NCBI GenBank assembly: GCA_002256025.1 | Contig: NKIB01014934.1 | Span: 1 to 39,456 of the forward strand | Length of the DNA: 39,456 nt | Source: Asterionella formosa | Lineage: Eukaryota | Direction: 5' to 3' | In this document: piece after piece, positions 3,193 through 38,409 of the stretch | How the letters are laid out: each line of letters begins with the position of its first letter | Position numbering within the stretch: the stretch's first letter is position 1 | Notes under the pieces: generated by a model | The model's database searches: none | What the model saw: the letters and a program-made list of their open reading frames with translations, nothing else | What the model was told of the DNA's origin: nothing | Made by a program: the position numbers and the translations under genes

Positions 3193-4669
3193 ATGGCGAC
3201 CGCAGCAGTACTAGCTATGCCTACCATGGTGAGTCATAATTGTTCCCCTTGATGTCTCTGCGACCGTTGTCGTAAAATGAAACACCGATCACTCCTGGTT
3301 TGCACAGCGCAGCAGCAATATCATGTCAGACAATCAGAGGTAGAAGTGAATTGGAACTCCCAACCGTTTGCACGATTCTGTCTGTTGTGTTTGTTTGTTT
3401 TATCTGTCTTTCTCTCGCACACACACACACACACACACACTCACTCACTCACGTTGCTGATCATACTTCATACTTTCAAAGGCTGTGGAATCAGCTCCTC
3501 CCAAGGTAGAGACCGAAGAAGAAGAAGTCGATCTGTACCGCGAGATGAAGTCGTTGGAGCAGCAGCTGGAGTTCGTGGAACTTCAAGAGGAATACCTCAA
3601 GGATGAAATGCGCCATTTGCAAAGAGAGTTATTGCGCGCAAAGGAAGAGATTCGTCGAATCCAGTCGGTGCCGTTGGTCATTGGACAGTTTAACGAAATG
3701 ATCGATGCCAATTATGGGATTGTGTCGAGTACAGCAGGCAGCAATTACTACGTACGTATTCTTAGCACGTTGGACCGGGAACTGCTCAAGCCCAACACGA
3801 GTATTGCGCTTCACAGGCACTCGCATTCTGTTGTGGATATTCTGCCGCCCGAGAGTGACTCGACGGTCAAGCTAATGACGGAAAAACCAACTGTCACATA
3901 CAAGGATATTGGAGGGATGGATATTCAGAAGCAAGAAGTCAGAGAAGCCATTGAGCTACCTCTCATTCAGCATCATCTATATCAACAAATCGGTATCGAT
4001 CCACCTCGTGGGGTATTGCTATACGGACCTCCTGGCACTGGAAAGACAATGATGGCCAAGGCCGTTGCCAATGCCACGGCTGCTACATTCATCAGTATGG
4101 TGGGATCAGAATTCGTCCAAAAGTACTTAGGAGAAGGACCACGTATGGTCCGTGACGTCTTTCGTTTGGCTCGGGAGAACTCGCCATGCATTGTCTTTAT
4201 TGATGAAATCGATGCCATCGCGACCAAGCGTTTCGATGCTCAGACTGGAGCCGATCGAGAAGTTCAACGGATTTTATTAGAACTCTTGAATCAAATGGAC
4301 GGCTTCGACCAAACAACCAATGTTAAGGTCATTATGGCCACCAATCGGGCGGACACGCTGGACCCTGCCCTCTTGCGTCCTGGACGTCTCGATAGAAAGA
4401 TTGAGTTTCCAAACCCAGACCGCCGCCAGAAACGCATGGTCTTTCAAGCCGCAACAAACAAGATGAATTTGAGCGATGAATTGGATTTGGAAGACTATGT
4501 CAATCGGTCGGAAAAGGTTTCTTGTGCTGATGTGTCGGCCATTTGCTCTGAAGCTGGATTGCAAGCTGTTAGAGAAAATCGGTATGTTGTTTTGCCCAAG
4601 GATTTTGATACGGCATACAAAAAGGTTGTCAACAACCGAGACAAAGAGTTTAGTTTTTACAGCATGTAG
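3193..4669 (+). CDS. RPT3: 26S proteasome AAA-ATPase subunit RPT3 (regulatory subunit 6B); exons 3193-3228 and 3482-4669, ~407 aa
   Basis: Walker A GPPGTGKT, Walker [12 protein letters not shown]3-type motifs [11 protein letters not shown] and [23 protein letters not shown]. The ORF-track start is a GTG. An upstream exon [12 protein letters not shown] ends at ATG|GTGAGT (3228/3229) and splices in phase 0 to the acceptor ctttcaaag|GCT (3481/3482), with a branch-like gctgatc just upstream. Confidence 0.95.
3418..3452. repeat. (CA)n / (CTCA)n microsatellite inside the RPT3 intron
   Basis: cacacacacacacacacacacactcactcactcac. Confidence 0.95.
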
Positions 4670-4888
4670 TACAAGCAGATCTGAGCATATACTTCCAAGG
4701 GCATGGCATTCAAGCAAAAGTAATCAAGTTTATGGGGGTTTATTTCTTCAATCATGAGGCACTTAGTCTAGTCCATGCTCCGTATAAGGCCATTACACTG
4801 GCTACTATAGGGACTAGATGTCAGTCACAGCGTAATACTGTCATGTGATGTATCATTTGTCAGCAATAATGAAAATCCAATGCGATTA

Positions 4889-6958
4889 TTATAGCAACTT
4901 TAACGCTTTGTCGATGATAGCCAGCGCTCCTAACGCGTCATGTTCCTTGGAGACCCTCTCAACATCTTGTGCATCCATCTTTCCAACTGCTCCCCAGAAA
5001 CGCTTGACTCTGGCAATATTGTACTCACTTTCCTTCACAGGATCAGTTCTTTGAGGGAAGGTATCAAAGTAAAAGTGGCCCTTATAGTCTATTCGTTTGA
5101 GTTGGTAGATGATCTCCAAAGCCATGGAGGGATGGACGGATCCAAACATCAAACCATCTTCAGCTGCTAACCGAGTGTACCCATCGTTGAGCTGAATACC
5201 AAAGACCTTATTGCCTGCCATGGCAATCGACTGACCTGGATTCTCTCCACTCATGAGCATATGACCAACATCAAGCGTAAGACCCATGTTGCTACGATCA
5301 ATTTCCTTTACTAACAACAAGGCTGCACCTGTGGAGGGAACGGTAAAGAATCGGGTGTTTTCGTCCGTGGGTTTGTACTCAAGTGAAAACTTGATATCGG
5401 GAAAAGCATCACAACACTCTCGAAAGGCATGCACTAACTGTTCCCACTTGTCGTCATAGTTGACTTGAAAGGGGTAATCATAGCCATCATATGCACTCCA
5501 CACAACCACTTCGTTACAACCCAACTCACGAGCTACCATGGCTGCTTCTTTGGTCAAGGCAATCGCTTCTCGGCGGAATTCTTCCTCGGGATGATTCATA
5601 GCACCTCGGGCAAATTTGGATGGATATCGCAAACAAACTGCGCCAGCAACTAATCCCGCATCATCCAACGCAGCTTTAGCGTCGGCACTAGACCACGTCA
5701 GAAAGTGCTGAGGGTAATTGAAATCGACGCAGGTCAGGCCCTTGATTGTTGCTTGACGTTTGACATAGTCACTGGGGTCCTTCAATGACTCTGACCAAAG
5801 TTCTGGTCTATCCTTCATTGAGTTCAATCGAGACCCAAACAAAAAGGGGAATGACTTCTCCTTACCACCTCGTGGAATATTCAATACACTTTCCTGGATC
5901 GATTTGTGACATTTTTCTTCCACTTCCGCTCTGGAGGGCGTTGACGGAACAGCTCCTTTCTTGGTTACCGCACATGACCCTGCAGCACTAGCAAAAGCCA
6001 AACACTCTGGCAATGACCTTTTCTCCAAGAGACTGACACAGAAGGCAGCACGGAAACAATCACCGGCACCTGTCTCATCAACGACGTCTGACACCGGAAA
6101 GGCTGATTGAGTCACTACATTGCCATCTGTTGTAACTAATGTTGATCCTTTTGAACCTCGTGTTACCAATACATTATGGGCTCCGTGTTTTTGAAGGAGC
6201 TTGGCATATTGAACAATGGTGTTGTTGTCATCACTGATGGATACGTTATCATTGCCGAGACTCTGAAGTAGTCGAACGAGTTCTGATTCATTCGGGACAA
6301 GATAATCACAAACTTGTAACATTTCTTTCGAAATAGAACGATCTTCTCCGCCAACGTCTTGCACGACCAAGATATTTCGTTTCTTGGCTTCGGTCGCAAT
6401 GAGTAGGTTCACGTATTCAGGTACTTCCCGTTGCAGCATGACACATGTCTTGTCCGACAGGAGAGCATCCAGATCCACTATTGCACTGCTATCATCTTTC
6501 CAGTGCTCCTCCCAATCTGACCAACCTCCCGCATTAGATCCTCCGCTGACGACAGCACTGACCGTCCCATCTTTGGTAATAAACACATATCCCCGCCCGC
6601 TTGGTAAATGGTGGTGAGTGCCACAATGTGTGATATCCACATGAGCATCTTCCAGAGCTTGTTTCAGAACATCTGCAGCTGCGTCATTCCCAAATTGACC
6701 AACAAACGTAACTGTTTCCCTGGACAGCTTACTGGCTGCCACCGCTTGCGTGCATCCCTTCCCGCCGGGTATATCCACATCGGGGTGACACTTGTCATCT
6801 CGTAAACCAATATTTTCACCATCCTTCGGTAAGCGAGCCACAGGCAAAAACGTGTCGGCGTTGATACTTCCTACTACGAGAATGGAAGCGTGGGTGGTAC
6901 TTGGGATAAGCAAGAAAGCAAGGAGCTGACACCAAAAATAAGAGAGGCGCATCGTCAT
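4889..6958 (-). CDS. Signal peptide + PfkB ribokinase-like domain fused to a xylose-isomerase-family TIM-barrel sugar isomerase, 689 aa
   Basis: Hydrophobic N-terminus ending ...PSTTHA|SILV. PfkB motifs: ILVVGSINAD, PGGKGCTQAVAASKL, FVGQFGND, PNESEL, DETGAGDCF. C-terminal half: SRLNS, VDFNYPQH, DGYDYPFQ, SLEYKP, LDVGH, QLNDG, DGLMFGS, YFDTFP (xylose/rhamnose/apiose isomerase-like metal sites). Confidence 0.88.
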   Translation of the reverse strand: MTMRLSYFWCQLLAFLLIPSTTHASILVVGSINADTFLPVARLPKDGENIGLRDDKCHPDVDIPGGKGCTQAVAASKLSRETVTFVGQFGNDAAADVLKQALEDAHVDITHCGTHHHLPSGRGYVFITKDGTVSAVVSGGSNAGGWSDWEEHWKDDSSAIVDLDALLSDKTCVMLQREVPEYVNLLIATEAKKRNILVVQDVGGEDRSISKEMLQVCDYLVPNESELVRLLQSLGNDNVSISDDNNTIVQYAKLLQKHGAHNVLVTRGSKGSTLVTTDGNVVTQSAFPVSDVVDETGAGDCFRAAFCVSLLEKRSLPECLAFASAAGSCAVTKKGAVPSTPSRAEVEEKCHKSIQESVLNIPRGGKEKSFPFLFGSRLNSMKDRPELWSESLKDPSDYVKRQATIKGLTCVDFNYPQHFLTWSSADAKAALDDAGLVAGAVCLRYPSKFARGAMNHPEEEFRREAIALTKEAAMVARELGCNEVVVWSAYDGYDYPFQVNYDDKWEQLVHAFRECCDAFPDIKFSLEYKPTDENTRFFTVPSTGAALLLVKEIDRSNMGLTLDVGHMLMSGENPGQSIAMAGNKVFGIQLNDGYTRLAAEDGLMFGSVHPSMALEIIYQLKRIDYKGHFYFDTFPQRTDPVKESEYNIARVKRFWGAVGKMDAQDVERVSKEHDALGALAIIDKALKLL

Positions 6959-7130
6959 CCTAGTCCTGCAATCCTAACAATAATACGATACACTGATGGC
7001 TGGGACAGGCGCATAATCAGCATGAATGAAGATTTTGCGGATCTGTTCATGGGCTTTTTGTGTCGTACGTACCGGTAGCTAAATACAAGTGTTACAAGTT
7101 GCAAGTATCCATAGTCCATAGTACCAAGAA

Positions 7131-7152
7131 CCTGGTACCTGGTACCAGGTAC
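7131..7152. repeat. Short array of the 7-bp unit CCTGGTA/TACCAGG (palindromic cluster) in the divergent promoter region
   Basis: cctggtacctggtaccaggtac; similar arrays occur near 24138, 35543 and 38410. Confidence 0.85.
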
Positions 7153-7526
7153 TGAACTTCTTAATGGCTGTTTATATTCTCGATATTATCAAACAATTAC
7201 ATGTTGCATGCCGGTATGTAGTAAAAATCCATGATGACATGCCGAGAAACGCGTACGTGTTCAGACTGGAAATATCAATCAGTATTCTTTCATTCTACCC
7301 AGTACATACTTAGCTCATACTCCCTGGTACTGCCATGTACCTTACTCCTCCCCCGCAAGAATTATGTGTTGTATGTTGCTTCAACATGCATCATTTCAGT
7401 GATGCAGTTTGTGCTTCTGTTGACCTGCCTCTAATCATATCGTTACTATTCTTCATAATAGGGGTAGCATATGTTTGTATAATAGTCTTATCACTATTAT
7501 AGCACACACTCTAGAACCCAATCGAC

Positions 7527-8414
7527 ATGACACTCTCGCTTCGCCTGTGCCTCGTCACAGTCCTTCTTTCTGCAGTAACTTGCTTCCGTCCTCAAGTTTC
7601 GTTTGTGGTTCGATCCACAACATTGCATGGAACCACACTCGAGTCGCCACCGCCTGCTGCAGTCGACAAAGTAGTTGTCCTTCCCGATGCAGCGGCTGTG
7701 GGCCACAAAATTCGGGACATTGTCGTATCCGCCGCCAACACTGCCATTGCCGAACGAGGATCATTTGCTTTGGCCATTCCTGGAGGTAGCATTTTGAAAA
7801 TGCTGGTGGGTGATGACATTCTTGGCGATTGGACCTCCAAAACAACCATTGCCTATGTCAATCATAAATGTGTGGACATGACCGATGCCACATTGGCAAC
7901 ACATGCCAAGGCCATGTCTCTCTTCATGGGAAAATGGGAAGGGTGCAATCCCATTGTTATGGATGGAACCAGCAATGGCGATGCAGAAGCGGCTAGTTAT
8001 GAACGGCAACTCAAGGGCCTTTCAGAGTCGGTTCTTCCGCGTGATGACAAAGGAATGCCAGTGTTTGACTTGGCCTTGATTGGAGTTGGAGATGACGGAC
8101 ATATTGGGTCTTTGTATCCTGGACGTGAGGAGGTTTTGGAAACGGACGCATGGGTCATTCCTGTTGCCATGAAGTCTCCTCCCTCCATTACATTGAGTTT
8201 GCCAGTCATGGCTAATGCGAAGCAAGTGGTGGTGGCAGCATGTGGCGTGAGTGATAAGTATCCACAAGGCAAGTCAGCTGGTATGCAACGAGCCGTTGTG
8301 GCAAAAGGAGAAACACTCAAAACGTTCCCTGCGGTGGGTCTTCGAGCCGTAGCTACTTGGGTTATGGATGAAGCAGCGGCTTCCAAACTCGGGGATGCAT
8401 ATACGTCCAAATAA
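7527..8414 (+). CDS. PGL: 6-phosphogluconolactonase with bipartite plastid-targeting presequence, 295 aa
   Basis: Motifs AIAERGSFALAIPGGS, PVFDLALIGVGDDGHIGSLYP, KSPPSITLSLPVM and WVMDEAAASKL. The N-terminus MTLSLRLCLVTVLLSAVTC|FRPQVSF is a signal peptide with Phe at +1, followed by a Ser/Thr/Arg-rich transit peptide. Confidence 0.9.
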   Translation: MTLSLRLCLVTVLLSAVTCFRPQVSFVVRSTTLHGTTLESPPPAAVDKVVVLPDAAAVGHKIRDIVVSAANTAIAERGSFALAIPGGSILKMLVGDDILGDWTSKTTIAYVNHKCVDMTDATLATHAKAMSLFMGKWEGCNPIVMDGTSNGDAEAASYERQLKGLSESVLPRDDKGMPVFDLALIGVGDDGHIGSLYPGREEVLETDAWVIPVAMKSPPSITLSLPVMANAKQVVVAACGVSDKYPQGKSAGMQRAVVAKGETLKTFPAVGLRAVATWVMDEAAASKLGDAYTSK

Positions 8415-10090: not shown

Positions 10091-10633
10091 ACAGGATATA
10101 TCTTTGGGCTGCTCTTATCATTTTTTCATGTGTCACAGAATTTTGAAATTTTTTCAAAATGTATCAGCAATGGTAACTCGATTTGAACTGAATTTCATTC
10201 ATTCCAAAAGTGACACTGTATCACTAATTTGTGATCACATTGTATCATGGAGTAACATGGATCTTCAATGGCAACAGGCTGGCAAAGATCATGTGTTTAT
10301 CCCTCCAGAAAATGATGATGGTCTTGATTTCAAGCAGCAACATAAAATATAACTACCGGTAAACTATATATATATCATATTAAAAACACAGCATTGCATC
10401 AATCATGCCGTTGGGGTAGTATACCGGTATTTCAATTCACGGACGACCGACAGGCAGACATCCGGTGTAAACGTTCTGCCTGGTAATAAATGTGCGTACA
10501 GAATCAGAGCAAGGTCGAGAGAGCCTCGTGGTACTCTGTAGCTTTTGAAATTACCTCACATCAATGATCCTCCCCTCTATCGTCGCTCATTTGTTGATCG
10601 GCTGTTCTAGTTCGTCGTGACCTTTGACTGTTG

Positions 10634-13600
10634 ATGACAATGACACCCGAAAGCATCTTTGTTGAGGAGTCTGATGTAGATTTATTGAGCGACTTGGTCT
10701 CTGGCAAAGCAGATCAGAATCGCATTGAAGCATGCTTCCTCCGATTTCAGAACGACGTTGAAGCAGACGCTTTGGTAGAGCAAGACTACTGGAAGGACAG
10801 GCTGAAAGAGCTCAGTCTTCTCGGTTTTCATGTGAAAGAATCGTTCGCTGCTCCAAGATCAATTACAGAGCCATCGGCCTATGTGCTTCCAGCAGAGTTT
10901 GACACTCCATCTGGCAAAAAGCACGTGCTGGCCATTGCGAAGCTGCTGCGCATTTCTAGTCATCGCGCTTTGACACTAACGCTCTCTGCGCTGCAAGAAG
11001 CGAGCGATAACACAGATTTGAGATCCACTCTAGGCACACAATCCTTTGTCAAGACGGTGGTGGAGTACAGCCATAGTCAACGAGCGGCGCGGCTACTGAT
11101 TCTAGCTGAATGCCTACGGATGGAACAAGACGTGGCATGTCCCATCTTTGTCTACCAACAATTAGAAAAGATAGATACATGCTACAAAATGGATAGTAAA
11201 AATCGAGGTCTGATGCGACGATTAATAAGTTTAGCCACCGCTCCAGACTCACGACCACGCCGTGATGAACTCCTGCCCTTGAAGGATATGTTGGGAAACG
11301 ACGATCAATTTGTCACATCCATGATGAAAGAGCCACCCAACTTGCGAGAATATGCCTTGGAGGCTTTGGTAGTACTGCTTTACTCTCGCGTCAAGGTATC
11401 GCGATGTGACGTGATTCTCCTGTTGCAGGCCTTTGCATCGTATCGTTGTTTCTTTACGGAATTGCCACAACGACAACGGAGATTGACCTTGTTATGTGGA
11501 TTGGTATGTGCAGAGTGCTTTTCACTTAGAAATGTGACAGGAACGAATTGGGTTGACGAACATCCCATCCTCGTAGGAATCTTGCATGGAACCGCGACTG
11601 CTCAAGATGAATTGGAAGCCATGCGTATTCTGATGCTAGAGTACTCAACCAACTTAGTTCAGCGTCGTGGGGCATTGTTGGCGGGCGTCTCAAATGCGCC
11701 AGAAATTATTGTTGACGCCCCTGAGTCTTTGGCCATATTGGCTTTTGGCTTGTTGCTACAATTGGCATATACATCGCTACCAACACCCAATGAAGAAATG
11801 TGTATGTATTGGCACAAATTCAAAGGCTTTTCTTGGGAATTTACTAAAACCGCATCAGAACTATTGGGTGCATTTGGATACTTAGATTCGACCATGCGAG
11901 GATTATTGATGGAAACCGATGCCAATGGTATAACAACTTATGAAGAAGCCATTCCTTATGATTGGCAATGGTCCATGCCAATTGCACCGACTGAAAACCA
12001 TGCAAACGTGAGCCACCTTGATGCGACGAAAGTTCTATATACCAATAGTATTGGATTAGAGTTGCTTTCCGCTATATTGAGCGCCTTTTCTGGATCCATT
12101 TTGACATGCACCGAAAATATAAGTATGCTCGCCAATCTAGCTGCTGTCATTTACTCAAATAATCCCATTATGTGTGAACCATTTTGGAAGGATTGTCAAA
12201 CTTTTGATGCATGTTCGAAGCTTCTTTCTCCTAACCAGCAAGTCGCTGCCTTGCTAAATGCTACATACATCCTTGCAGCAACTGCAATGAACCAAATAGA
12301 GGAACAAAGTTTGCCCTCGATAGCTCCCTTGATGCGACTTTTGTCTTCCCTTTGTTTCGATTCAGATAGTTCCTCCAGGGTCCTTGGGATGCTTCCCGTT
12401 GATCTGATAGAAAATTCACTCTTGTTGTCCGCACCCACCGGATACCTTGTGGATGAAGCTGGCTATAGCACTAGTGTGCGGGGGATCTTGGAGTCTATCT
12501 ATACTATTGCCATATTGGACAAAACAATGTTGCTACAAAAATCTTTGAAAGCCGAAGGACCGCGATTAGTTTACTCCATCTTGTCATCAACCAAAGAAGA
12601 AAATGTGAAAAACGTTTCTCTAAAGCTAATTGGTGCCTTGATGAGCGATGACTGGGCCATCAGCACATGTAAATTATTTGATCACGATACTCTGGAACAT
12701 TATTTTACTACCCCCAATCTGACGGTCCCTGCTGTTGATCTATTGTGTGTATTTATACATAGCATGTCATCAGCTGTGGTTAAATCACCTTCAGAAAAGG
12801 AAACACTGGGCTATCTCAATGTAATCCTGCGAAGCGTCTTGGATGCATGTAGCGTCTTCGCCATGTCAGTACTGTCAATTGGGACCAAGCGAAAGTCGGA
12901 CGCAGGCAACCCCTCTCTGCCGATCCTCCAGGCCCTCGCAAGCTTCATTCGTTCAATTCGTCAAATTATTATTCTCCACCCCTCCTCTACCATTCGTGCT
13001 GCAGCATCGGAATGCAGAAACGCATTGATTCAGACATTGGCAACCAACACACAGTTGGGGTGCGCATTGGCTCATTCGGCTTGCTCTCCAGTCATGATGA
13101 CTCTCGTCCTTGAACTTGAACTCGATTTTGCCGAAGCGAATCAATTGAATTTTGCGTCTAATGAATTTGCTGTTGACAAGGATACAAACCGGTTTGGAGC
13201 ATGGAGAAATTTGATAAGAAATGCATCGAAGTCAGACACGACTAAGCATGTCCGAATCCGATTTCATGAGCGACTCTTAAACATTCAGGGCATCAAGTTG
13301 GACACGGCTGCTGTGAGTGAACAAGGATGGGTGGACCATGATGTGGCTCAACTAGCAGCATCGGCAATTGAGATTTTGGGTCTTTGGGCCTTCCTTGTTG
13401 ACGACATACTGGCGGAACGTTTTGATCTCGTCGAACCCTTGCCACTTGATGCAATCACTTTCATCAAAAGTACCAGTCCGAATCGCCTCATCTTGAGTCG
13501 TGCTTTGTTGCCACCTCGTGTGGGCGCTACCAGCTCTCTCTCGATTTTTTGGCAGTCAGAGTCACTCTCGGTATTGGATATACTTTCAACAAGCATCTTT

Positions 13601-16600
13601 TGCAAATCCAATGTTTCCACTTGTTCGACGTTTGATCTACTGACGGTCTGTATCCAGCATGAAACTTCGGTGGGGGAACAAAATCCGGTCTTGCAGCGGG
13701 CTTTGGCGCCCAAGGGCCAACTAAGTCTGGTATTGTTTCACTCTTTGCATCAATGTTGCACTCTTCTGTCTGGGGGGACCATTGGCTCTTCAAACAGCGA
13801 GATGACGAAAATATTGAGTCAAGGAATCCGAACGCTCAACCTCTTGCAGGTTATTATCGTATCTCAAGTGTGTTCTCTGCAGTTTCTAACGGAAGGTACT
13901 GTTCTCGAATCGCTTAATAATATTGTGTTTACTGTCGCTGCATCCATGAAAATGTACGGCAGCTCGCTTCACCAACAATTGCTGGACGACGATGTCTTGT
14001 TAGTCAAGGTGAGGCTATTGTCGGAGATTCTTCACGCATTTACTATGGCACAGAAAATTGGACACTCCCCTGCAAGTTCACTTCCCACTATACTTTCAAG
14101 CAATTTCTCAAGCGCACCCTTCTTGAGTGATTTGAGTTCGATGGTCTCGACTATCGTATCGACCCACTCATCTGCCTCTGCTTTGGACCATCGTGCTTCG
14201 TCCATATTGAACAATGTTCTGTCTTACTGCTTTGACTTACTTGCTGCCGAAGCTGTTGATGAAATGAATAACAGCAAAATCAGAGACAAAGATAGGATCG
14301 CAACCAATGGCATCACTCAAAATTGCGGCTTGTCTGGTTTTGAATCTAACCATAATTCTCTTAACTTTCATGGGCCTGTCCTCGTATCCCAGGCCTTTGG
14401 AAGACTGGTATCAAGGACACAATCAATTGCAATCTTGTCACAGCCATCATCACTACAGGCTGCATTCCCTGTTTCAATCACAAGCAATTTTTTCCTGTTT
14501 AGCCATGGTACATGTGATGTAGTTGAAGCAATCTCTTGGTTTTCCAATCTGGATGCTTCCGAAGATTTCAGCGCCTTTATTAAGGATTTAGACATAGCCA
14601 ACTCACTACTAGTGAGTGAATTGGCTCTTGTATCCTCGTGGAGTCGAATTTCTCAGGTATTTTCGCTTGCGAGTTGTTTCTCCACTATTGCTACTGTATC
14701 TTGTGTGATTGAGCAATACTGCCAGAACTGTAAAGGACTAGAAGAAGCTATGTTACAAGAAAACGAGTCAAGAGTTTTGGCTACCATTTTGATGTGTGAT
14801 TCCTTTTCCTCAGTACTGGTTTCCCATTTTCAACAATTTGAATCAACTACACCCTCAAGGCAATCATATGAGCTCTTGGCAATGCTCACCTCAACACTCG
14901 AGAAGCAAATGGCACTGTCTGCTTCAAGGAGTGTCATCTCTGTCAATCTTCAAGTCAAATTATCAGAAACCTTGTGCACATCACAGCAGCGACTGTTGAC
15001 TTGCTGTACATCGTTGATTATGACTATGCAGAGAAATAACTGTGACATGAACGAGAACCAAAACATGTTGCTCAGGTTGATGGACATCACTGGGGCATGT
15101 GTAGTTCATGCGATTCAGGCAAGCGACAATCCAAAAATGTTGTCACCAGCTCGGAATCTCTGCTGTGCTGCGATGTCATTTTTGACCCTTTGTATTTCTG
15201 TTAGCAGCGGAAGGCCATCGTTTTACGCTGGTGCAGCTGAAGCAATGGAATTGCATGGGACAGTCAAACACTTGATTGTGAGGGCATCAAGCGAAGAATT
15301 TGAGAAGGACGATGCTCGCGCCATTCATTTTTTAAATGCTACCCTCCAGTTCATCTTGATCATTGCCGAAGCTGGAAATTCTTCGCCAGGAATGGCTAGC
15401 TTGCTCATTGACCACCAGCTTCCAAAACTGCTTGTGTCTTGCCCACTCAGGATCAGTGAGAGTCGCAGATGGTCGGAGAATGCCAAACTTGGAAACGAAG
15501 GCATGAGATACCGTGGTTATATACCAAGCGCAAAAGTTTCAAAAGCAGTTGCCAAAGTTGAAGGCATTACATTAGAAACCGATAGACTTCTATTAAGTGG
15601 GAAAGACGACCCTCTGCATGCTTTGTGGGTTGATGCAATTGTGGTGGTGCGAACCCTCGCAAGGATGAAATCAATTATAATTGCCGACCCCAACAAGAGG
15701 AGATTTTTTGTGAACATAGCTATTGATTTTGTCACTACACACAAATCCACTCTTCTATCATGTTTACATCACTGTCACTCATCAACGTCGGAGTCAGTAA
15801 CAGTTCTCACTTACAATATTGTCAGAGAAGCTACAGAAGTATTCTCGCTCGTTACTGAGCTGTGCAATATAGCAAATAAGGATTTGTTTGAATGCTCTTG
15901 TCCCGAGCTATACAGGGAATTTGTGCTAGCCGCAAAGTCAGTGGTTGGAAGCATTTCGATGTTCCTGGGTTCCTCTGGAACAGCACGGGAATTGTTCTCG
16001 TTGCTGGCCAAAATTGACTCCTTGACAGGCCAGGACAACCAAAGCAACCAATATGATCAGCCTCAAGAAATTCACCTCTCATTTTCATCTGGAAGTCCAA
16101 GTGACCGACACGAGGCTATCCGAAATGCTCATCTGGCACGCCGGTGCTATGCACTTGTGACAAAGAGTGAGTATGATGCTTCCTCGATTGAGAACCTAGC
16201 CCAAGGGAAGTCTTCTCAATTTTCAGCAGCGACACTTGAGCAAAGTTGCCAAAAGGCAGTAAATAGCCCCTTTAATCTCAAAATGGAGCATGCTGCTGCG
16301 TTGTGCTTATCGTATGCCATTTCAATTCTCTGGAAAACACATCCCATCTCATCTGGTTTCATTATGTTTACGGAAGAAGAATCTCAGCAGCTCAACGCAA
16401 TGGCACTTGTCAAGCCCGGAATGATAGTTGCTCTTCGGGATAATGCCAGGTTAGGTAGCATACAATTTGCACGTGTTCAAAGCATTGACACAGTGAAGCG
16501 GACTTGGAATGTCAGTTATTTGCATTCTGAGTTATCGCAACCTTTGGGTGATATCCACGATGTAGTGGTTCATGCCGCTCAACTGGCTGGAATGGAGGAT

Positions 16601-17131
16601 CTGATGAAACGAAAAACAATCCTGAAATATGTTCCCGCTCCTGATTCTGCAATCGAACTAGAAAATGGGGGACCTGGTCGGAACTTGGCTTGTGTTGGCC
16701 ACCTGATAATTGCTCTGAGATGGTGTTACCAACATGAAGGTGAGGGTCCTTTTCGCGACTTACTTGTGCGTCGTTCCCTTGCTGCAGGTGCATCCATGCT
16801 GTTGAGCACTGAAATTTCTCTTCACAAGGAACTTGGGACTACCAGAAGGTTTCAAACCAATGAGGATATGAAACGTGTGAACCAACAACTGTATCACATC
16901 TTTGATACTTCTTGTTTAGAAGTGCAAGGGGATTTGTCCCAAAGCATGCATCAAGAACACATCGGGAGACTCCAAAAACTAATAGGTTTGGCAACTTGGA
17001 ATGGGATTCAACAGCAGCTTTGGAGCCAAATAGATTCTGCAAGGGAGGCCAAGCAACAAGAACAAGAGCAAAGAAAAGCAGCACTACTCAGTTCAAACCC
17101 ATGGCTTCATGGGGTCAGGAGTCCTTTCTAA
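10634..17131 (+). CDS. Large intronless Leu/Ser/Ala-rich alpha-solenoid protein, ~2165 aa; possibly nucleoporin Nup188/Nup205 family
   Basis: Uninterrupted 6.5-kb ORF (first ATG 10634) with a helical repeat-like pattern. Size and the N-terminal segment VVEYSHSQRAARLLILAECLR resemble the 'YY.ER..LL..L' segment of Nup188/205. The coding call is secure; the family call is tentative. Confidence 0.55.
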   Translation: MTMTPESIFVEESDVDLLSDLVSGKADQNRIEACFLRFQNDVEADALVEQDYWKDRLKELSLLGFHVKESFAAPRSITEPSAYVLPAEFDTPSGKKHVLAIAKLLRISSHRALTLTLSALQEASDNTDLRSTLGTQSFVKTVVEYSHSQRAARLLILAECLRMEQDVACPIFVYQQLEKIDTCYKMDSKNRGLMRRLISLATAPDSRPRRDELLPLKDMLGNDDQFVTSMMKEPPNLREYALEALVVLLYSRVKVSRCDVILLLQAFASYRCFFTELPQRQRRLTLLCGLVCAECFSLRNVTGTNWVDEHPILVGILHGTATAQDELEAMRILMLEYSTNLVQRRGALLAGVSNAPEIIVDAPESLAILAFGLLLQLAYTSLPTPNEEMCMYWHKFKGFSWEFTKTASELLGAFGYLDSTMRGLLMETDANGITTYEEAIPYDWQWSMPIAPTENHANVSHLDATKVLYTNSIGLELLSAILSAFSGSILTCTENISMLANLAAVIYSNNPIMCEPFWKDCQTFDACSKLLSPNQQVAALLNATYILAATAMNQIEEQSLPSIAPLMRLLSSLCFDSDSSSRVLGMLPVDLIENSLLLSAPTGYLVDEAGYSTSVRGILESIYTIAILDKTMLLQKSLKAEGPRLVYSILSSTKEENVKNVSLKLIGALMSDDWAISTCKLFDHDTLEHYFTTPNLTVPAVDLLCVFIHSMSSAVVKSPSEKETLGYLNVILRSVLDACSVFAMSVLSIGTKRKSDAGNPSLPILQALASFIRSIRQIIILHPSSTIRAAASECRNALIQTLATNTQLGCALAHSACSPVMMTLVLELELDFAEANQLNFASNEFAVDKDTNRFGAWRNLIRNASKSDTTKHVRIRFHERLLNIQGIKLDTAAVSEQGWVDHDVAQLAASAIEILGLWAFLVDDILAERFDLVEPLPLDAITFIKSTSPNRLILSRALLPPRVGATSSLSIFWQSESLSVLDILSTSIFCKSNVSTCSTFDLLTVCIQHETSVGEQNPVLQRALAPKGQLSLVLFHSLHQCCTLLSGGTIGSSNSEMTKILSQGIRTLNLLQVIIVSQVCSLQFLTEGTVLESLNNIVFTVAASMKMYGSSLHQQLLDDDVLLVKVRLLSEILHAFTMAQKIGHSPASSLPTILSSNFSSAPFLSDLSSMVSTIVSTHSSASALDHRASSILNNVLSYCFDLLAAEAVDEMNNSKIRDKDRIATNGITQNCGLSGFESNHNSLNFHGPVLVSQAFGRLVSRTQSIAILSQPSSLQAAFPVSITSNFFLFSHGTCDVVEAISWFSNLDASEDFSAFIKDLDIANSLLVSELALVSSWSRISQVFSLASCFSTIATVSCVIEQYCQNCKGLEEAMLQENESRVLATILMCDSFSSVLVSHFQQFESTTPSRQSYELLAMLTSTLEKQMALSASRSVISVNLQVKLSETLCTSQQRLLTCCTSLIMTMQRNNCDMNENQNMLLRLMDITGACVVHAIQASDNPKMLSPARNLCCAAMSFLTLCISVSSGRPSFYAGAAEAMELHGTVKHLIVRASSEEFEKDDARAIHFLNATLQFILIIAEAGNSSPGMASLLIDHQLPKLLVSCPLRISESRRWSENAKLGNEGMRYRGYIPSAKVSKAVAKVEGITLETDRLLLSGKDDPLHALWVDAIVVVRTLARMKSIIIADPNKRRFFVNIAIDFVTTHKSTLLSCLHHCHSSTSESVTVLTYNIVREATEVFSLVTELCNIANKDLFECSCPELYREFVLAAKSVVGSISMFLGSSGTARELFSLLAKIDSLTGQDNQSNQYDQPQEIHLSFSSGSPSDRHEAIRNAHLARRCYALVTKSEYDASSIENLAQGKSSQFSAATLEQSCQKAVNSPFNLKMEHAAALCLSYAISILWKTHPISSGFIMFTEEESQQLNAMALVKPGMIVALRDNARLGSIQFARVQSIDTVKRTWNVSYLHSELSQPLGDIHDVVVHAAQLAGMEDLMKRKTILKYVPAPDSAIELENGGPGRNLACVGHLIIALRWCYQHEGEGPFRDLLVRRSLAAGASMLLSTEISLHKELGTTRRFQTNEDMKRVNQQLYHIFDTSCLEVQGDLSQSMHQEHIGRLQKLIGLATWNGIQQQLWSQIDSAREAKQQEQEQRKAALLSSNPWLHGVRSPF

Positions 17132-22558: not shown

Positions 22559-23893
22559 TTAGGTACCACGAAAGGTGCTCTCTGTGGAAGTCGAATGATA
22601 TAAAGTCTTCTCATCACCAGCTTGCCTTAACAAAGATCCGCCTTCTTGTCCATCATGCACAATCAAGTGCGGGGCCAGAATATGGGTGGCGGTCGATTCA
22701 AGTACTGTCATAAAGAACACGAGACCAGAGTAAAAGGCAATCACATGAACAGGATCAGTCCATCCTAATCCAGCGGTTCCAAAGGGAACCACAACCAAAA
22801 CACCTAAAACAACCCACCAACACCACATAATAAGCTTCACATCTGGAGGGTCGAAAGGTCTTGGCATTCTTCCTCCATAGTGAAGAACGCGCAACAAAAA
22901 GAGGATTGTGAGAGCAACTCCAATGGAAATGCCCATGAGACGCGAGGCAAACGGTGGCAACATCTCCTCTTGTATCACAGCAACGACAAACATCTTCACT
23001 GAAACTCCCACCGCCAGCAATGCCAGTCCCAAAAGTCGGGTGAAAAAAATGAGCACAGCTCCGTGGATACGAGAGCGCCGAATGGCGTGGTCTGCCATTG
23101 GTGGATCCATGTGAAAGTACATGAGTGTGAACATGAACACCAAAAGAAATTCCAACGAAAGCACTATATTGTATCCCTGGTCGCTTGCAACCATTGTCTC
23201 TTTGCCTCTCATCTCACGGTAAAGAATTGTAGCAGACACGACAGTTTCCCCGAGCATGACAAGAACGATACACCCAAATCGATCCCTCGTATGTTCAATA
23301 TTTAATGGTATCAATGCGTTTCCTTTTAAAACCAAGATTCCAACAAATTCTAAGGAAAGTTCGATTACAACAGCAATCCACCAACAGATAGGCGCTAGCT
23401 CTGGGCGAATGGAAGCCACCAAGAACATCGAAATTACTAGAACAATTGAGAGGACGAGCAACGTACAGAACTGACGGGCTCTCGGGATGAACACATAGAT
23501 ATTCACCAACATGATGAGAACCGCGAGGCGCTGCAATATGGCTCCCCTTGAAAACTGAATAGCAGTATCATAGCCAGCATTGATTATGCATTGTGCAAAC
23601 CCAAGTAAATAAACAAAGAAATTCAATGTGTGCAACAAGGTGCCATCTTCAAACCTAGTTGTGATGTGGTGAGTATATAACAGCCAACTGTTGATGAAGC
23701 AATAGTAAATGACACAGAATTCGGCAACGCCAGCCATGGTCGGATTGTCCTTCAATCCATCCGCAGTGGCGCTAGCAGCTGCCACCAAAAGCAAATCTAG
23801 AAAGAGTTCCCAGTATCTCGCACTCGCTGCTGTTTCCTCAGTGTCCCAGTCCTGCAAGAGCACCGGAGCTCCGTAGAGCATTCGGGCTACCAT
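22559..23893 (-). CDS. Low temperature requirement protein A (LtrA)-family polytopic membrane protein, 444 aa
   Basis: Motifs ARYWELFLDLLLVAA, TRFED and IPLNIEHTRDRFGCIVLVMLGETVV, plus roughly 11-12 hydrophobic segments. Confidence 0.85.
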   Translation of the reverse strand: MVARMLYGAPVLLQDWDTEETAASARYWELFLDLLLVAAASATADGLKDNPTMAGVAEFCVIYYCFINSWLLYTHHITTRFEDGTLLHTLNFFVYLLGFAQCIINAGYDTAIQFSRGAILQRLAVLIMLVNIYVFIPRARQFCTLLVLSIVLVISMFLVASIRPELAPICWWIAVVIELSLEFVGILVLKGNALIPLNIEHTRDRFGCIVLVMLGETVVSATILYREMRGKETMVASDQGYNIVLSLEFLLVFMFTLMYFHMDPPMADHAIRRSRIHGAVLIFFTRLLGLALLAVGVSVKMFVVAVIQEEMLPPFASRLMGISIGVALTILFLLRVLHYGGRMPRPFDPPDVKLIMWCWWVVLGVLVVVPFGTAGLGWTDPVHVIAFYSGLVFFMTVLESTATHILAPHLIVHDGQEGGSLLRQAGDEKTLYHSTSTESTFRGT

Positions 23894-24137
23894 TGCTGGC
23901 TACTGATGATACGTATTGTGAAATTGAATGAATGATGATAGTGAGTTCTTCAAAGGCAACAATCACATCAGGATGTATCACAAAATGGAAAAATGCAACA
24001 GAAAATATATAACACTACTAAAATAAGTATAGATATAATGCAACACCAATTAAATAAGAACGAAAAAATCACAAATTGAAGTCGGCAGTACATGATACCG
24101 GTAGCACAAATCATATATCGGCATACGGGACGAGGGA

Positions 24138-27073: not shown

Positions 27074-28825
27074 TCAAGATATGTTACGAAAAATATCAGG
27101 TTTTTGCTGCAAGAAGTAAAAAAATGTGCTCACATTTTCGTTAGATGCCTTTTCCAGCACCTTGGGCCACAATTCGACGGGGAAGTCCGAATCAAGTGCA
27201 AGTTTTCTTCCAAATCTGTTGAGATTCAAGAAATATTCAAGGCGCATGCTTTCCTTCCTTGGACAAGCGAGTCCAAGCAATGAGGCAATGTGACCTTCAA
27301 GACGAGTAATGGATGAGTTCTGTGCAAAGGCGTCCACAAAGAGAACTTCGTCCTTTTCTGCAATGGAAAAGTTCAGATGAAGGTTCGTTATGGTCTTATT
27401 TGCCGCTATACCATGAGCAAGTTCCTTCACAGCAGGGGTACCAATCATTACGCACTCATCTTCTCCCATACGCATAAGGGTTAGTTTTTGAAGATGTGAA
27501 CTATATTGCCCACCATGTCGCCCTTCCAAAAGGTATCGTACTCCGTTGAAAGCTCCAATACCCCATTCACAAGAACCAATGGTAAGCGCTTCCATGGTTG
27601 GGTTGCATACGACGCGGCGACAAATCCAGGCAACGTCAGAGACTTCCAAATGTGCACTCACAATGTCGACCTCTTTTATAGTTGGGTGGCGTTCTAGGAG
27701 GAGAGCCAGTTCTTTGCCATGGTGTATCAATTCTTTGATTGGGGAATGTTTCCATAATAGTTTCCTGATAGACTGATTTTTTCTTAGGGCTTTCACAATG
27801 ACATTAATAGATTCGAATGGAGTTTTGCTTGAATGGCACAAGCAAAAACACTCCAAGTAGTTGAATCCAAATATCTTGGCAAGCTCGATAGCGCCATGTG
27901 CGAATATTGGGCACTCCAAAATAGCAATCACTTTCATGTTGGTGATGGGTAGCTTACTTAGAAACACAGCAAGTGCGTTTTGATCCGTCATATCCCGCTT
28001 GGCCCTGAGGCACAATTTCGAGAGAGTTGTAAACATTTCAAGATGGTCTGCCCACAATAGCATTTCTTCAGGCGATACATCGAGAAGGAGCTTGGTCAAA
28101 GGGCTTGTTTGAAGTGCATTAATTAGTCCTCCAAATGTGGCAGCGTCAAACATGGGAGCGACAAAGTCAGGTCTTTGGGTAATCCCAAAAGTTTCGAGCC
28201 TTTTCATTCGGCGTAATAATTTTTCAAGCGTATGTTGTTGTTTAGAATTCAATGGTCTACATGGAGCAAACGTAAATGCTCGGAGATTCGAAAAGTCTTG
28301 ACACAGTCCAGCAGGTGAATCCATTTTTCTCATCCATTCCGTTTCCCAATATTCATGAGACGTATTGTCAAAATCACAGTCCAATAAATGCTTGCTACGC
28401 GGACAAGCCAAGGTGGAAAGCTTCAAATGGGCAAGGCGTGTCGCAGTCTTACATGTAAACGCAGAAAGGAATCGAGTCTCAAATTTTCTATCAAAGCCTC
28501 TCACAATCAGGTCGGTAAGGAGGTTAACATGATCGCGAAGGAAGCCGTGAAACACATGTAACAAGAAAAAGTGTGCTCTTGTTGACAATTTGTAGTCATC
28601 CTCCAACGCACTTGCAAATTCCAATGGTGTCACCATCACCATTGACTTATTCGCATACATAATAGTGAGTGTAATGAGGCAAGGAACGTCGGGATTTGCC
28701 TCAATGGTCAAGTGTTCTGCCAATGTGAGCCTGCTCAAGAGATCCATGACATCTTCAGGATAAACGGAATGTCGGAGTGCTCCAAGCAAGGTGTCCCTGG
28801 CGCACTTGTGAGGAAAGTCTGTCAT
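27074..28825 (-). CDS. RNI-like leucine-rich-repeat protein of a diatom-expanded family, ~583 aa
   Basis: Repeats such as ALRKNQSIRKL, LLERHPTIKEV, GIAANKTITNLHL and AFAQNSSITRL. The typical C-terminal cap is LEYFLNLNRFGRKL...PVELWPKVLEKA...FFYFLQQKPDIF. The ORF-track start (28912) is a GTG; the first ATG is 28825. Confidence 0.8.
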   Translation of the reverse strand: MTDFPHKCARDTLLGALRHSVYPEDVMDLLSRLTLAEHLTIEANPDVPCLITLTIMYANKSMVMVTPLEFASALEDDYKLSTRAHFFLLHVFHGFLRDHVNLLTDLIVRGFDRKFETRFLSAFTCKTATRLAHLKLSTLACPRSKHLLDCDFDNTSHEYWETEWMRKMDSPAGLCQDFSNLRAFTFAPCRPLNSKQQHTLEKLLRRMKRLETFGITQRPDFVAPMFDAATFGGLINALQTSPLTKLLLDVSPEEMLLWADHLEMFTTLSKLCLRAKRDMTDQNALAVFLSKLPITNMKVIAILECPIFAHGAIELAKIFGFNYLECFCLCHSSKTPFESINVIVKALRKNQSIRKLLWKHSPIKELIHHGKELALLLERHPTIKEVDIVSAHLEVSDVAWICRRVVCNPTMEALTIGSCEWGIGAFNGVRYLLEGRHGGQYSSHLQKLTLMRMGEDECVMIGTPAVKELAHGIAANKTITNLHLNFSIAEKDEVLFVDAFAQNSSITRLEGHIASLLGLACPRKESMRLEYFLNLNRFGRKLALDSDFPVELWPKVLEKASNENVSTFFYFLQQKPDIFRNIS

Positions 28826-29247
28826 GGCTGAGACAAATGTTGTTGTTGATGTTAATGATGATGAGGCGTGTCGTTTGGTATTGATTGCTGCGCCTCTTGT
28901 TTTTCTCACCACTTGAGTAGATTTGTGATTTCCAAATTATGGCATAGTCTGTGTTTCTGTGTTTCATCCGAACTGGACAATGACAGAATTCATCCAAACT
29001 TCGTTCCACATGTCGAACGAAATCTTGCACTCATCACGTTCACGGCGAGGGCGAGGAATTCTCGCTCTCGCTCGCAAGTCAGTCCATTGTCTTGACGTGG
29101 AGTGAGTGGATATCCGCAAGCTATCCAAGCACCTTGCAGCTGACCACCAGGTACGGTAATACTATATGTTATGTCTAACAATCTACCGGTAGAATGCTCA
29201 AATCAGTCTCCATAAAAGAAAGGCTCATCCTAAAACACTGATACATT

Positions 29248-35202: not shown

Positions 35203-35542
35203 GATGGTATATTTATTCTAATCTGAGTAGAGTAGACTACCGGTAATAAAGCTTGTTGGCGTTCCCCTGCTCATTATGGCCATGCCATGACGGTGGTGTT
35301 GGATGGTTGCCTACGACAAACAAATTAGAATTTATCTAATTCCGTCGTTGATTTATTGAGTTTTGAACATCATTCAAATCGAAGCTAATCTATCTCCTCT
35401 AAAAGAACCCGGTCATGAGCGAATCAACGAGGATCTCCGGAATCTTTACATATAAATAATCACATGCAGTCGCTCTACGTACCGGTACGGTATAAATTCA
35501 CCGCCCATGATGGATTTCGGGATCTATTTGTATGATACGGGT

Positions 35543-37982: not shown

Positions 37983-38409
37983 TTCAGCAAAGATCCATTT
38001 CGTTTTGTGTGGAACAAGGACGGTATTATTTTTGTCGTATTTTCATCAGCCAGAATGTATGAGCTAACAATTATATCATGATACTCCGAGCATTAATTAA
38101 TCAATTACCATATACAGTATTCACCACAGCCAAAATACATACCGGTAGACAGCAGTCAGCTAAATAGGATAGAAGATCCGTCCTGTGTACCAGTACCGGT
38201 ATACAGTGTATATTTCTTCATTGTAAATAAATAGTCAATACCGTTTATACAGACGAATGCGTCGCTCAATAAGATACATACCAGTATCTTATTCGCACAG
38301 CACAGGATTTGTTTTGCCCTACCTCGTACCTGGTAGGAGGAACTATCGTCGTATGTACTGTTTGCCAGAGTACATGTTACCGAAATGCTTGTTTGCACAG
38401 GTTAGCTCC

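What the first reader, a model, noticed from the sequence alone, without database searches (positions are those of the whole stretch)
4889..6958. Secretory-pathway/periplastid sugar kinase-isomerase fusion
Seen: a signal peptide followed immediately by a complete PfkB ribokinase-like domain (no plastid Phe motif or transit peptide), fused to a xylose-isomerase-family domain. From memory, its motifs (SRLNS, DFNYPQH, DGYDYPFQ, EYKP, DGLMFGSV, YFDTFP) resemble the bacterial D-apiose isomerase (ApsI)-like subfamily more than classical XylA; this needs confirming. Inference: a bifunctional isomerise-then-phosphorylate enzyme for a pentose or branched sugar. An ATP-dependent kinase behind a signal peptide suggests the ER lumen or periplastid compartment, where such a pathway is not well described.
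Basis: partly seen in the sequence, partly recalled or inferred. Interest (0 to 1): 0.75.

Follow-up and report, generated by a model that had tools for sequence, protein, structure and literature searches.

The report
Algal signal-peptide pentose kinase–isomerase fusion
This diatom gene encodes a signal-peptide enzyme, shared with green algae and haptophytes, that most likely first phosphorylates a non-ribose sugar (best guess D-arabinose) and then isomerises the sugar phosphate, which would be an untested job for the xylose-isomerase fold and may also explain similar uncharacterised gene clusters in bacteria.

Summary
In detail: an intronless 689-aa gene, covered by one RNA contig, with signal peptide, ribokinase-type kinase and xylose-isomerase-fold domain. 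The fusion and its leader recur in diatoms, haptophytes, a pelagophyte and green algae. The interpretation needs changing. The isomerase is not ApsI. It belongs to a sister subfamily (RLNS, NYPxH, D257→G) whose bacterial genes sit beside a ribokinase-like kinase or a phosphorylating PTS, almost never both (1 of 79 loci). None of the RLNS loci examined showed the apsI transketolase-plus-FGGY context. The isomerase therefore probably acts after phosphorylation. The kinase is not a plain ribokinase. Its lid residues facing ribose C2 are G/V/A-S (A98G in 140 of 141 fusions; controls keep Ala98 and Ile110, 28 of 28), and a similar change arose separately in the bacterial partner kinases. A98G is the published mutation that boosts D-arabinose activity 15-fold. 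Best guess: D-arabinose → arabinose-5-P → ribulose-5-P (about 0.45). A bolder rival is hamamelose-5-P → fructose-6-P by carbon shift. Compartment is open between secretory lumen and periplastid space: green algae, which lack a periplastid space, keep the leader, but a linker RGG motif (100 of 112) favours the latter in diatoms. No activity has been measured.

The parts
4889..6958 (-). Intronless CDS, 689 aa: signal peptide + PfkB kinase + linker + xylose-isomerase-fold domain
   Evidence: RNA contig 4627-7049 without joints
6887..6958 (-). Predicted signal peptide aa 1-24 (cleavage after Ala24 inferred); no +1 Phe, no transit-peptide-like spacer
   Evidence: sequence; hydrophobic leader in 95 of 108 scorable top homologues and 19 of 20 scorable divergent fusions, 0 of 5 scorable stand-alone kinases
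5933..6886 (-). Ribokinase-type kinase aa 25-342 from the eukaryotic plant-type RBSK clade. Sugar/catalytic residues N33, D35, G66, K67, E178, D300 kept; T70 replaces EcoRK Asn46; lid triad G123/V125/A135 replaces Ala98/Ile100/Ile110
5849..5932 (-). Inter-domain linker with an RGG motif (aa 363-365, window 5864-5872); a possible processing site
   Evidence: RGG in 100 of 112 extractable linkers, 4.0 expected from shuffles
4892..5848 (-). Xylose-isomerase-fold TIM barrel aa 371-689, 'RLNS' subfamily. W487, E527, K529, D563, H566, D592, E600, D632 kept; XylA Trp16→N379, Asp257→G602, no His in register with His54; R377, N414, H418, R444 near-invariant
6959..7077 (-). Sequence upstream of the ATG covered by RNA contigs (probable 5' UTR)
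   Evidence: contigs end at 7049 (X1) and 7077 (X2)

Best explanation
A bifunctional salvage enzyme made on the ER and working in the endomembrane lumen or, in diatoms, the periplastid compartment. Step 1 (inferred): the kinase phosphorylates C5 of a pentofuranose that carries extra polar bulk on the face where ribose has its C2 hydrogen, most likely D-arabinose. Step 2 (inferred): the metal-dependent xylose-isomerase-fold domain converts the aldose 5-phosphate to the ketose 5-phosphate (arabinose-5-P to ribulose-5-P), which enters the pentose phosphate pathway. Conserved Arg/Asn/His residues that replace XylA's aromatic and His residues are inferred to hold the phosphate. Shown: gene, RNA cover, domains, conservation, gene contexts, residue patterns. 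Not shown: any activity, substrate, metal content or location. My odds: kinase-first order about 0.8; substrate other than ribose about 0.85; D-arabinose specifically about 0.45.
For: Order: in 79 metagenome loci of the subfamily (best 80 kept of 533 confirmed), PTS only 33, ribokinase-like only 23, both 1, neither 22. Among the 33 loci with at least 4.5 kb downstream the split is 15/15/0/3. The signature is shared by both types (NYPxH 79/79, DDG-type 79/79, DTFP 79/79, RxNS 72/79). Of 57 unassigned ORFs near PTS-type clusters, 37 were scanned and the only sugar kinase was the L111 PfkB. The Lactiplantibacillus locus has isomerase + PTS + rpiB + rpe and no kinase in the 12.8 kb shown. Coupling: a ribokinase-like gene directly follows the isomerase in 11 of 11 GTDB loci and lies in the cluster in 7 of 8 RLNS-type plasmid loci examined. 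Pocket: A98G in 119/120 and 21/21 fusions, I110A/S in 120/120 and 21/21; stand-alone controls keep A98 and I110 in 28/28, as do the own-genome RbsK and 8/8 second SAR324-type kinases. Fused and bacterial partner kinases fall in separate clades (99 and 95 SH-aLRT), so the change is convergent. EcoRK A98G raises kcat on D-arabinose 15-fold because the Ala98 beta-carbon lies closest to the arabinose 2-OH (PMC9604405, abstract and passages). Pentose product: Rpe and RpiB accompany 20 of 34 loci with PTS EIIBC, and the L026 Rpe passes the rpe cut-off but not the AlsE one. The mutarotase scores as FucU-like (96 bits) over RbsD (34 bits), and D-arabinose is a close analogue of L-fucose (PMC11301363 passage). 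One locus pairs the isomerase with two nucleoside hydrolases and a PnrA-type binding protein (L070).
Against: PTS-linked isomerases are nearly one clade (2 state changes), so this is about one evolutionary event. At 70% clustering the exclusion is not significant (p 0.15), and a kinase elsewhere in those genomes is not excluded. In the same paper I110V cut arabinose activity fivefold, I100V did not help, and the A98G mutant still had KM 310 mM for arabinose against 0.28 mM for ribose; the natural triad was never tested. SAR324-type partner kinases keep A98 (11/11, with I100D) and 5 of 7 plasmid ones have S98. Rpe/RpiB were found in none of the 23 kinase-only loci. The binding protein scores closer to allose- than ribose-binding proteins, and the PTS is beta-glucoside-like; both hint at a six-carbon sugar. 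L003 has an FGGY kinase upstream, which fits a ketose route. No source of D-arabinose in an algal lumen is shown.
Confidence: 0.45

Rival explanations
1. Same order, but the substrate is the branched sugar D-hamamelose (2-C-hydroxymethyl-D-ribose). The kinase makes hamamelose-5-P and the TIM barrel performs a 1,2-carbon shift (alpha-ketol rearrangement) to fructose-6-P instead of a hydride shift.
For: All three lid residues shrink or turn polar (GVA, GVS, SAA, ADA, GNA) while Asp16, and outside diatoms Asn46, are kept; this suits a CH2OH added on the C2-H face of a ribo-configured furanose. The binding protein is allose-like. D257→G is invariant. The sister subfamily handles a branched sugar. 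Plants make hamamelose from fructose bisphosphate (PMC9833046 passage) and Rhizobiales relatives assimilate it (PMC8914248 passage). All named fusion holders are algae.
Against: Rpe + RpiB in 20 of 34 PTS loci would be unnecessary for a fructose-6-P product. The nucleoside-hydrolase locus L070 points to a nucleoside sugar. I found no report of hamamelose in algae in the 25 of 49 listings seen (titles and abstract starts only). I know no xylose-isomerase-family carbon-shift enzyme (own knowledge).
Confidence: 0.15
2. Same order with another C2/C3-altered sugar (D-lyxose or D-xylose to xylulose-5-P, 2-C-methyl- or 2-O-methyl-ribose, or psicose/allose).
For: The lid also faces the C3 hydrogen. 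Rpe + RpiB are needed for a xylulose-5-P product too. Allose-type pointers exist: AlsB-like binding protein, RpiR regulator, RpiB.
Against: Hexose phosphates would need downstream enzymes that the kinase-type clusters lack. The only experimental link of the A98G change is to arabinose.
Confidence: 0.17
3. It is an ordinary ribokinase fused to an analogous ribose-5-phosphate isomerase (ribose → R5P → Ru5P), for example for luminal nucleoside salvage.
For: The nearest solved kinase is a ribokinase (6ILR, E 4e-54; Arabidopsis origin recalled). Six of seven listed ribose ligands are kept. A98G alone only doubles KM for ribose. L070 has nucleoside hydrolases.
Against: The lid triad differs from every stand-alone control. 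The genome has a separate canonical RbsK (283 vs 197 bits). 5 of 5 SAR324-type genomes tested have RpiA, 8 of 11 such loci hold a second, canonical-triad kinase, and PTS clusters already carry RpiB.
Confidence: 0.1
4. One reading: the isomerase acts on a free sugar (ribulose to ribose, or apiose to apulose) and the kinase follows.
For: XylA, RhaI and ApsI act on free sugars (established knowledge). 3KTC is the top structural match (TM 0.91, 32% identity). An FGGY kinase lies upstream in L003.
Against: PTS-only clusters. Motifs and context differ from apsI-type clusters. The 3KTC-like DDD group forms its own clade (100). Ribose as the product is disfavoured by the lid triad.
Confidence: 0.13

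Closest known systems
D-apiose isomerase ApsI / PDB 3KTC (titled 'putative sugar isomerase YP_050048.1, Erwinia carotovora atroseptica'; that this entry is ApsI is recalled, not shown by a call)
   Same: Same fold (TM 0.91), 32% identity, shared DG[YW]DYPFQ and EYKP, Asp at the XylA Glu217 position.
   Different: G-L-W-H-F vs R-L-N-S, TPE vs CLR, DDDL vs EDGL, DQFP vs DTFP. ApsI works with an FGGY kinase and transketolase (PMC13001218 passages), not with a PfkB kinase or PTS.
Xylose isomerase XylA and L-rhamnose isomerase RhaI
   Same: TIM barrel with W137, E181, K183, H220, D245, D287 equivalents (XylA numbering and roles recalled).
   Different: About 25% identity; far below the cut-offs (63.8 vs 447 and 40.6 vs 531 bits); Trp16→Asn, no His54 in register, Asp257→Gly; probably a phosphorylated substrate.
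Plant plastid ribokinase RBSK and E. coli RbsK
   Same: Same clade as plant-type RBSK; N14, D16, G42, K43, E143, D255 kept.
   Different: Lid A98/I100/I110 → G/V/A-S; N46→T in 96 of 120 top hits; a signal peptide, whereas plant RBSK is exclusively plastidic (PMC12589546 passages); fused to an isomerase.
Arabinose-5-phosphate isomerases KdsD/GutQ/KpsF and the GFAT isomerase domain
   Same: The proposed reaction, A5P ⇌ Ru5P (PMC11301363 and PMC11591822 passages).
   Different: Those are SIS-fold enzymes (own knowledge); this would be an unrelated, metal-dependent TIM-barrel analogue used for catabolism or salvage.
D-arabinokinase (EC 2.7.1.54) plus phosphoarabinoisomerase of Propionibacterium (recalled, nothing read)
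   Same: The same two-step route, D-arabinose → A5P → Ru5P.
   Different: I could not test whether that organism carries this subfamily; the link is a lead only.

Membership tests
PfkB carbohydrate kinases | PF00294 above cut-off with GAGD anion hole and catalytic Asp | tested here: met
   168 bits vs 25.8; D300 in 120/120 and 20/20
Ribokinase (RbsK/RBSK, true ribose specificity) | TIGR02152 cut-off 299.65 bits | tested here: not met
   194 bits; a bacterial model, so weak evidence for a eukaryotic sequence
Ribokinase (RbsK/RBSK, true ribose specificity) | Ribose ligands N14, D16, G42, K43, N46, E143, D255 | tested here: inconclusive
   6 of 7 kept; N46→T in the query and 96/120 top hits, N in 19/21 divergent fusions
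Ribokinase (RbsK/RBSK, true ribose specificity) | Hydrophobic lid A98/I100/I110 over C2-H and C3-H | tested here: not met
   G/V/A in the query; A98 and I110 in 28/28 controls
Ribokinase (RbsK/RBSK, true ribose specificity) | ATP-dependent ribose phosphorylation | not testable with these tools
   needs an assay
Xylose-isomerase fold superfamily | TIM barrel with Glu/Lys/His/Asp metal and O1 residues | tested here: met
   model pLDDT 96.8; TM 0.79-0.91 to XylA, RhaI and 3KTC; residues near-invariant
XylA (EC 5.3.1.5) | Model cut-off; Trp16, His54, Asp257 | tested here: not met
   63.8 vs 447 bits; N379, N414/Y415, G602
ApsI D-apiose isomerase | G-x-W-H-F, TPE, DDDL, DQFP motifs as in 3KTC and enzymes of apsI-type clusters | tested here: not met
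ApsI D-apiose isomerase | Homologues cluster with FGGY kinase AplK and transketolase AptAB | tested here: not met
   no transketolase pair beside the isomerase in 8 of 8 RLNS-type plasmid loci; present in L030 and L031. L003 has an FGGY kinase, but its TPP enzymes score as dehydrogenase E1 subunits
ApsI D-apiose isomerase | Apiose ⇌ apulose activity | not testable with these tools
   needs an assay
Plastid-stromal protein (ASAFAP) | Phe or similar at +1 followed by a transit peptide | tested here: not met
   Ser at the inferred +1; an [ASG]F pair in only 9 of 95 post-signal spacers (rule from PMC12136025 passages)
Periplastid (PPC) protein | Bipartite presequence without +1 Phe | tested here: inconclusive
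   no spacer in the query; median 10 residues from hydrophobic core to first strand. The published predictor finds only 25% of PPC proteins. The linker RGG also ends the presequences of 2 of 2 signal-bearing Der1 paralogues read in G000
ER-resident soluble protein | C-terminal KDEL/HDEL-type signal | tested here: not met
   0 of 120 and 0 of 21

The most novel reading that the evidence does not exclude
The RLNS domain is a hamamelose-5-phosphate ⇌ fructose-6-phosphate mutase: a xylose-isomerase fold that has lost Asp257 and catalyses a 1,2-carbon shift. This is the reaction type inferred from labelling for fructose bisphosphate → hamamelose bisphosphate on the route to the Rubisco inhibitor CA1P. 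In diatoms and haptophytes the fusion would be a periplastid polyprotein cut after RGG, and SAR324 would have taken the isomerase from an alga.
Probability: 0.12. Interest if true: 0.88.

Novelty: new variant of a known kind. Interest (0 to 1): 0.64.

Why it matters
The protein is already in databases under automatic names such as 'ribokinase/xylose isomerase', but my searches found no paper on it. If the reading holds, it defines a xylose-isomerase-fold subfamily that acts on sugar phosphates, and a natural arabinokinase that evolved twice from ribokinase by the substitution engineers found. It would assign a widespread uncharacterised bacterial cluster (rhizobia, enterobacteria, vibrios, SAR324, gut-type and lactic Firmicutes). 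It would also place ATP-dependent pentose salvage in the algal endomembrane or periplastid space. A natural D-arabinose kinase is of practical use for arabinoside synthesis (PMC9604405). Cheap tests exist.

Tried and rejected
ApsI membership: rejected on motifs, tree and gene context. Two genes, an intron, or a leaderless start: rejected. The isomerase as a stand-in for a missing Rpi: rejected, RpiA found in 5 of 5 genomes (one only as a partial match) and RpiB in 0 of 5. Simple fission or fusion with the SAR324 kinase: rejected, 24-30% identity and a separate clade. A fructoselysine-type deglycase cluster: rejected, the SIS protein is an RpiR regulator. A sulfoquinovose route: sulfofructose kinase matches at only E 1e-11, and I saw no SQ genes among the neighbours annotated. 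Direction of transfer with SAR324: nested within the algal clade, but the AU test is borderline (p 0.047, 40 rows, LG+G4, group chosen after seeing the tree), so it stays a lead. Literature: 'apiose+isomerase+apulose' 0 papers; 'diatom+ribokinase+xylose isomerase' 0; 'ribokinase+xylose isomerase+algae+fusion' 1 unrelated; 'LRGG+diatom+signal peptide' 1 unrelated listing. 'RGG' does not occur in the text of PMC3774753 or PMC12136025, so my recollection of a published RGG motif is unverified. The apiose pathway paper and the Arabidopsis ribokinase paper were not held. Four look-ups of earlier findings were empty. The first tree run did not finish in time. The ESM Atlas gave only automatic names. 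No supplements were read.
Full report
Observation. The minus strand holds one open frame from 6973 to 4889. The first ATG at 6958 gives 689 residues. Pfam finds a complete PfkB domain at aa 25-342 and a xylose-isomerase-like TIM barrel at aa 418-642. A hydrophobic leader of about 24 residues leads directly into the kinase. One RNA contig from a polyA library covers 4627-7049 without gap or joint, a contig from another study covers 4895-6950, and the intergenic bins 7079-7360 are empty in 4 of 4 runs (4 of the 19 runs listed were laid). There is no Met between residues 3 and 174.

Spread. A search with the whole protein gave 453 hits; all 120 listed carry both domains and the named ones are diatoms. 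A Hemiselmis isomerase fragment was also hit. By a hydrophobicity heuristic, 95 of 108 scorable top hits (12 of the 120 lacked the motif or a leader) and 19 of 20 scorable divergent fusions have a signal-like leader. None of 5 scorable stand-alone kinases does; 8 more have no leader and 5 could not be scored. No C-terminal KDEL-type signal occurs in 141 fusions. Green algae have no periplastid compartment (established knowledge), so the leader cannot mean periplastid everywhere.

The isomerase is not ApsI. The closest solved structure is 3KTC by sequence (E 3e-46 against 4e-13 for XylA) and by fold (model pLDDT 96.8, TM 0.91, 32% identity). That 3KTC is ApsI is recalled. The apsI cluster is described with an aplK kinase and transketolases (PMC13001218, passages). 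Two plasmid loci have this layout, and their enzymes share 3KTC's G-x-W-H-F, TPE, DDDL and DQFP. The query reads R-L-N-S, N-Y-P-x-H, C-L-R, E-D-G-L and D-T-F-P. R377, N379, S380, N414, H418, R444 and G602 are invariant in 120/120 top fusions, 20/20 divergent fusions, 11/11 GTDB loci and 4/4 plasmid enzymes tested. The DDD group forms its own clade (76 rows). I call the query's group the RLNS subfamily. It keeps the W137, E181, K183, H220, D245 and D287 equivalents but has Asn for Trp16, no His in register with His54, and Gly for Asp257 (XylA numbering recalled).

Bacterial context. The nearest stand-alone relatives (50-55% identity) are 11 GTDB loci, 4 titled SAR324; the 7 placed in the tree form one clade. 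In 11 of 11 the next gene is ribokinase-like, and 8 of 11 hold a second kinase. Of 144 plasmid records, I examined 12 neighbourhoods plus one XylA and one RhaI reference. Seven show isomerase + transporter + RpiR-type regulator + ribokinase/PfkB (the signature of L028 was not checked). One, in Lactiplantibacillus, shows isomerase + PTS + rpiB + rpe with no kinase. Two are apsI-type and two 3KTC-like loci have no clear catabolic context. In 79 metagenome loci, PTS only occurs in 33, kinase only in 23, both in 1 and neither in 22; among the 33 long loci the split is 15/15/0/3. A PTS delivers phosphorylated sugar (established knowledge), so the isomerase must act on a sugar phosphate there. Caveat: the PTS-linked enzymes are nearly one clade (2 changes), and the exclusion loses significance at 70% clustering (p 0.15; p 0.007 at 90%). 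The transfer of this conclusion to the algal enzyme rests on the shared active-site signature. Of 57 unassigned ORFs near PTS clusters, 37 were scanned and only the L111 PfkB is a sugar kinase.

The kinase is not a plain ribokinase. It belongs to the eukaryotic plant-type RBSK clade (support 99), apart from the clade of bacterial partner kinases (95) (72 rows). A paper on E. coli ribokinase (PMC9604405; abstract and passages) shows that Ala98, Ile100 and Ile110 face the C2 and C3 hydrogens, and that A98G raises kcat on D-arabinose 15-fold. I found this paper after favouring arabinose on context grounds; I had noticed the query's Gly in the alignment before counting. With E. coli RbsK as ruler, fusions have G98 in 119/120 and 21/21, V100 in 120/120 and 19/21, and A/S110 in all 141. 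Metagenome-cluster kinases have G98 in 17/23 and A110 in 17/23. SAR324-type partners read A/D/A (11/11), and plasmid partners S/A/A (5) or G/V/S (2). All 28 stand-alone controls keep A98 and I110, as do the genome's own canonical RbsK and the 8 second kinases of the SAR324-type loci. The pocket was thus opened twice independently in kinases partnered with this isomerase. Three stand-alone kinases with the canonical triad (two named as dinoflagellate) nest inside the fusion clade, which may be reversion or misplacement. Against arabinose: I110V lowered arabinose activity fivefold, and A98G alone still prefers ribose strongly.

Mechanism. Most likely: D-arabinose + ATP → arabinose-5-P → ribulose-5-P. 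Rpe and RpiB in 20 of 34 PTS loci fit a pentulose phosphate product. The mutarotase is FucU-like. One locus pairs the isomerase with nucleoside hydrolases. In an alga the role could be salvage or metabolite repair, since A5P forms from Ru5P spontaneously and through GFAT and inhibits phosphoglucose isomerase (PMC11301363, passages); that role is inference. The main rival is hamamelose with a carbon shift to fructose-6-P. It is favoured by the size of the pocket change, the allose-like binding protein and the loss of Asp257, and disfavoured by Rpe/RpiB. Plain ribose is disfavoured by the triad, by the separate RbsK in this genome and by RpiA in 5 of 5 SAR324-type genomes.

Compartment. It is not stromal by the Phe rule. 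PPC proteins normally have a bipartite presequence (PMC12136025, passages), which the query lacks. However, the linker carries RGG in 100 of 112 extractable top-hit linkers (4.0 expected) and in 8 of 25 divergent ones. These include the haptophyte sequences, which also have RGG after the signal peptide; the named green-algal linkers extracted and Aureoumbra lack it. In this genome both signal-bearing Der1 paralogues read end their presequence in RGG, while the Ufd1-like one and three proteins with plastid-type leaders do not. An Rpe paralogue has a Phe-less bipartite-looking leader, and a G6PDH has a hydrophobic N-terminus. RGG resembles the ubiquitin C-terminus (own knowledge); I found no paper on it. 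I put secretory lumen at about 0.5 and PPC at about 0.45 for diatoms.

Evolution. The SAR324-type isomerases nest inside the algal clade (algae + SAR324 supported 100/98); forcing the algae together is rejected only marginally (p-AU 0.047). An alga-to-bacterium transfer followed by re-pairing with a bacterial kinase is possible but unproven.

Verdict. A real and conserved fusion with automatic database names and no study found in my searches. It works like a kinase-plus-aldose-phosphate-isomerase route and is not a member of ApsI, XylA or, by its lid, true ribokinase. New variant of a known kind; interest 0.64. All functional steps are inferred.

Noticed in passing
window 7527-8414 (+): 6-phosphogluconolactonase-like gene (Pfam PF01182; TIGR01198 91 bits, below cut-off) with signal peptide and a C-F junction typical of plastid targeting, head to head with the fusion about 570 bp away. 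Synteny in other diatoms was not tested.
   Followed up: partly
window 3461-4669 (+): Proteasome AAA ATPase gene converging on the fusion; RNA contigs of the two run into each other at their 3' ends.
   Followed up: no
L017:1315-3036 (+), G000:C3016: The genome's canonical ribokinase is fused to a Ham1/ITPase domain.
   Followed up: partly
L118 and L119 (G000:C4593, C3535); window 5864-5872: RGG ends the presequence of both signal-bearing Der1 paralogues and sits in the fusion linker; it may be a general processing motif in algae with red complex plastids.
   Followed up: partly
L123:1243-2214 (+), G000:C15343; L126, G000:C12642: Ribulose-phosphate epimerase paralogue with a signal peptide, no +1 Phe and a long extension; a G6PDH with a hydrophobic N-terminus. 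Possible periplastid pentose phosphate enzymes.
   Followed up: no
L002-L012: SAR324-type isomerases nest within the algal clade, a possible eukaryote-to-bacterium transfer (p-AU 0.047).
   Followed up: partly
L070:5001-10611: RLNS isomerase followed by two nucleoside hydrolases and a PnrA-type ABC transporter.
   Followed up: partly
P0097, P0099, P0104, P0107: Fusions of 1,100-1,180 aa (one named Thalassiosira) carry a roughly 400-residue N-terminal extension with hydrophobic stretches instead of a short leader; this may be real or merged gene models.
   Followed up: no
window 31267-32559 (+) and 32704-35217 (-): Two convergent PLAC8-domain genes side by side.
   Followed up: no
window 10628-17131 (+), 27074-28936 (-), 36573-38042 (-): Long ORFs (2,167, 620 and 489 aa) with no Pfam match at E 0.001.
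   Followed up: no
window 22559-23899 (-): LtrA (bacterial low-temperature requirement A) family gene.
   Followed up: no
L019:1447-3468 (-), G000:C9231: A PfkB kinase fused behind another domain that looks like pseudouridine-5'-phosphate glycosidase (by eye, name recalled).
   Followed up: no
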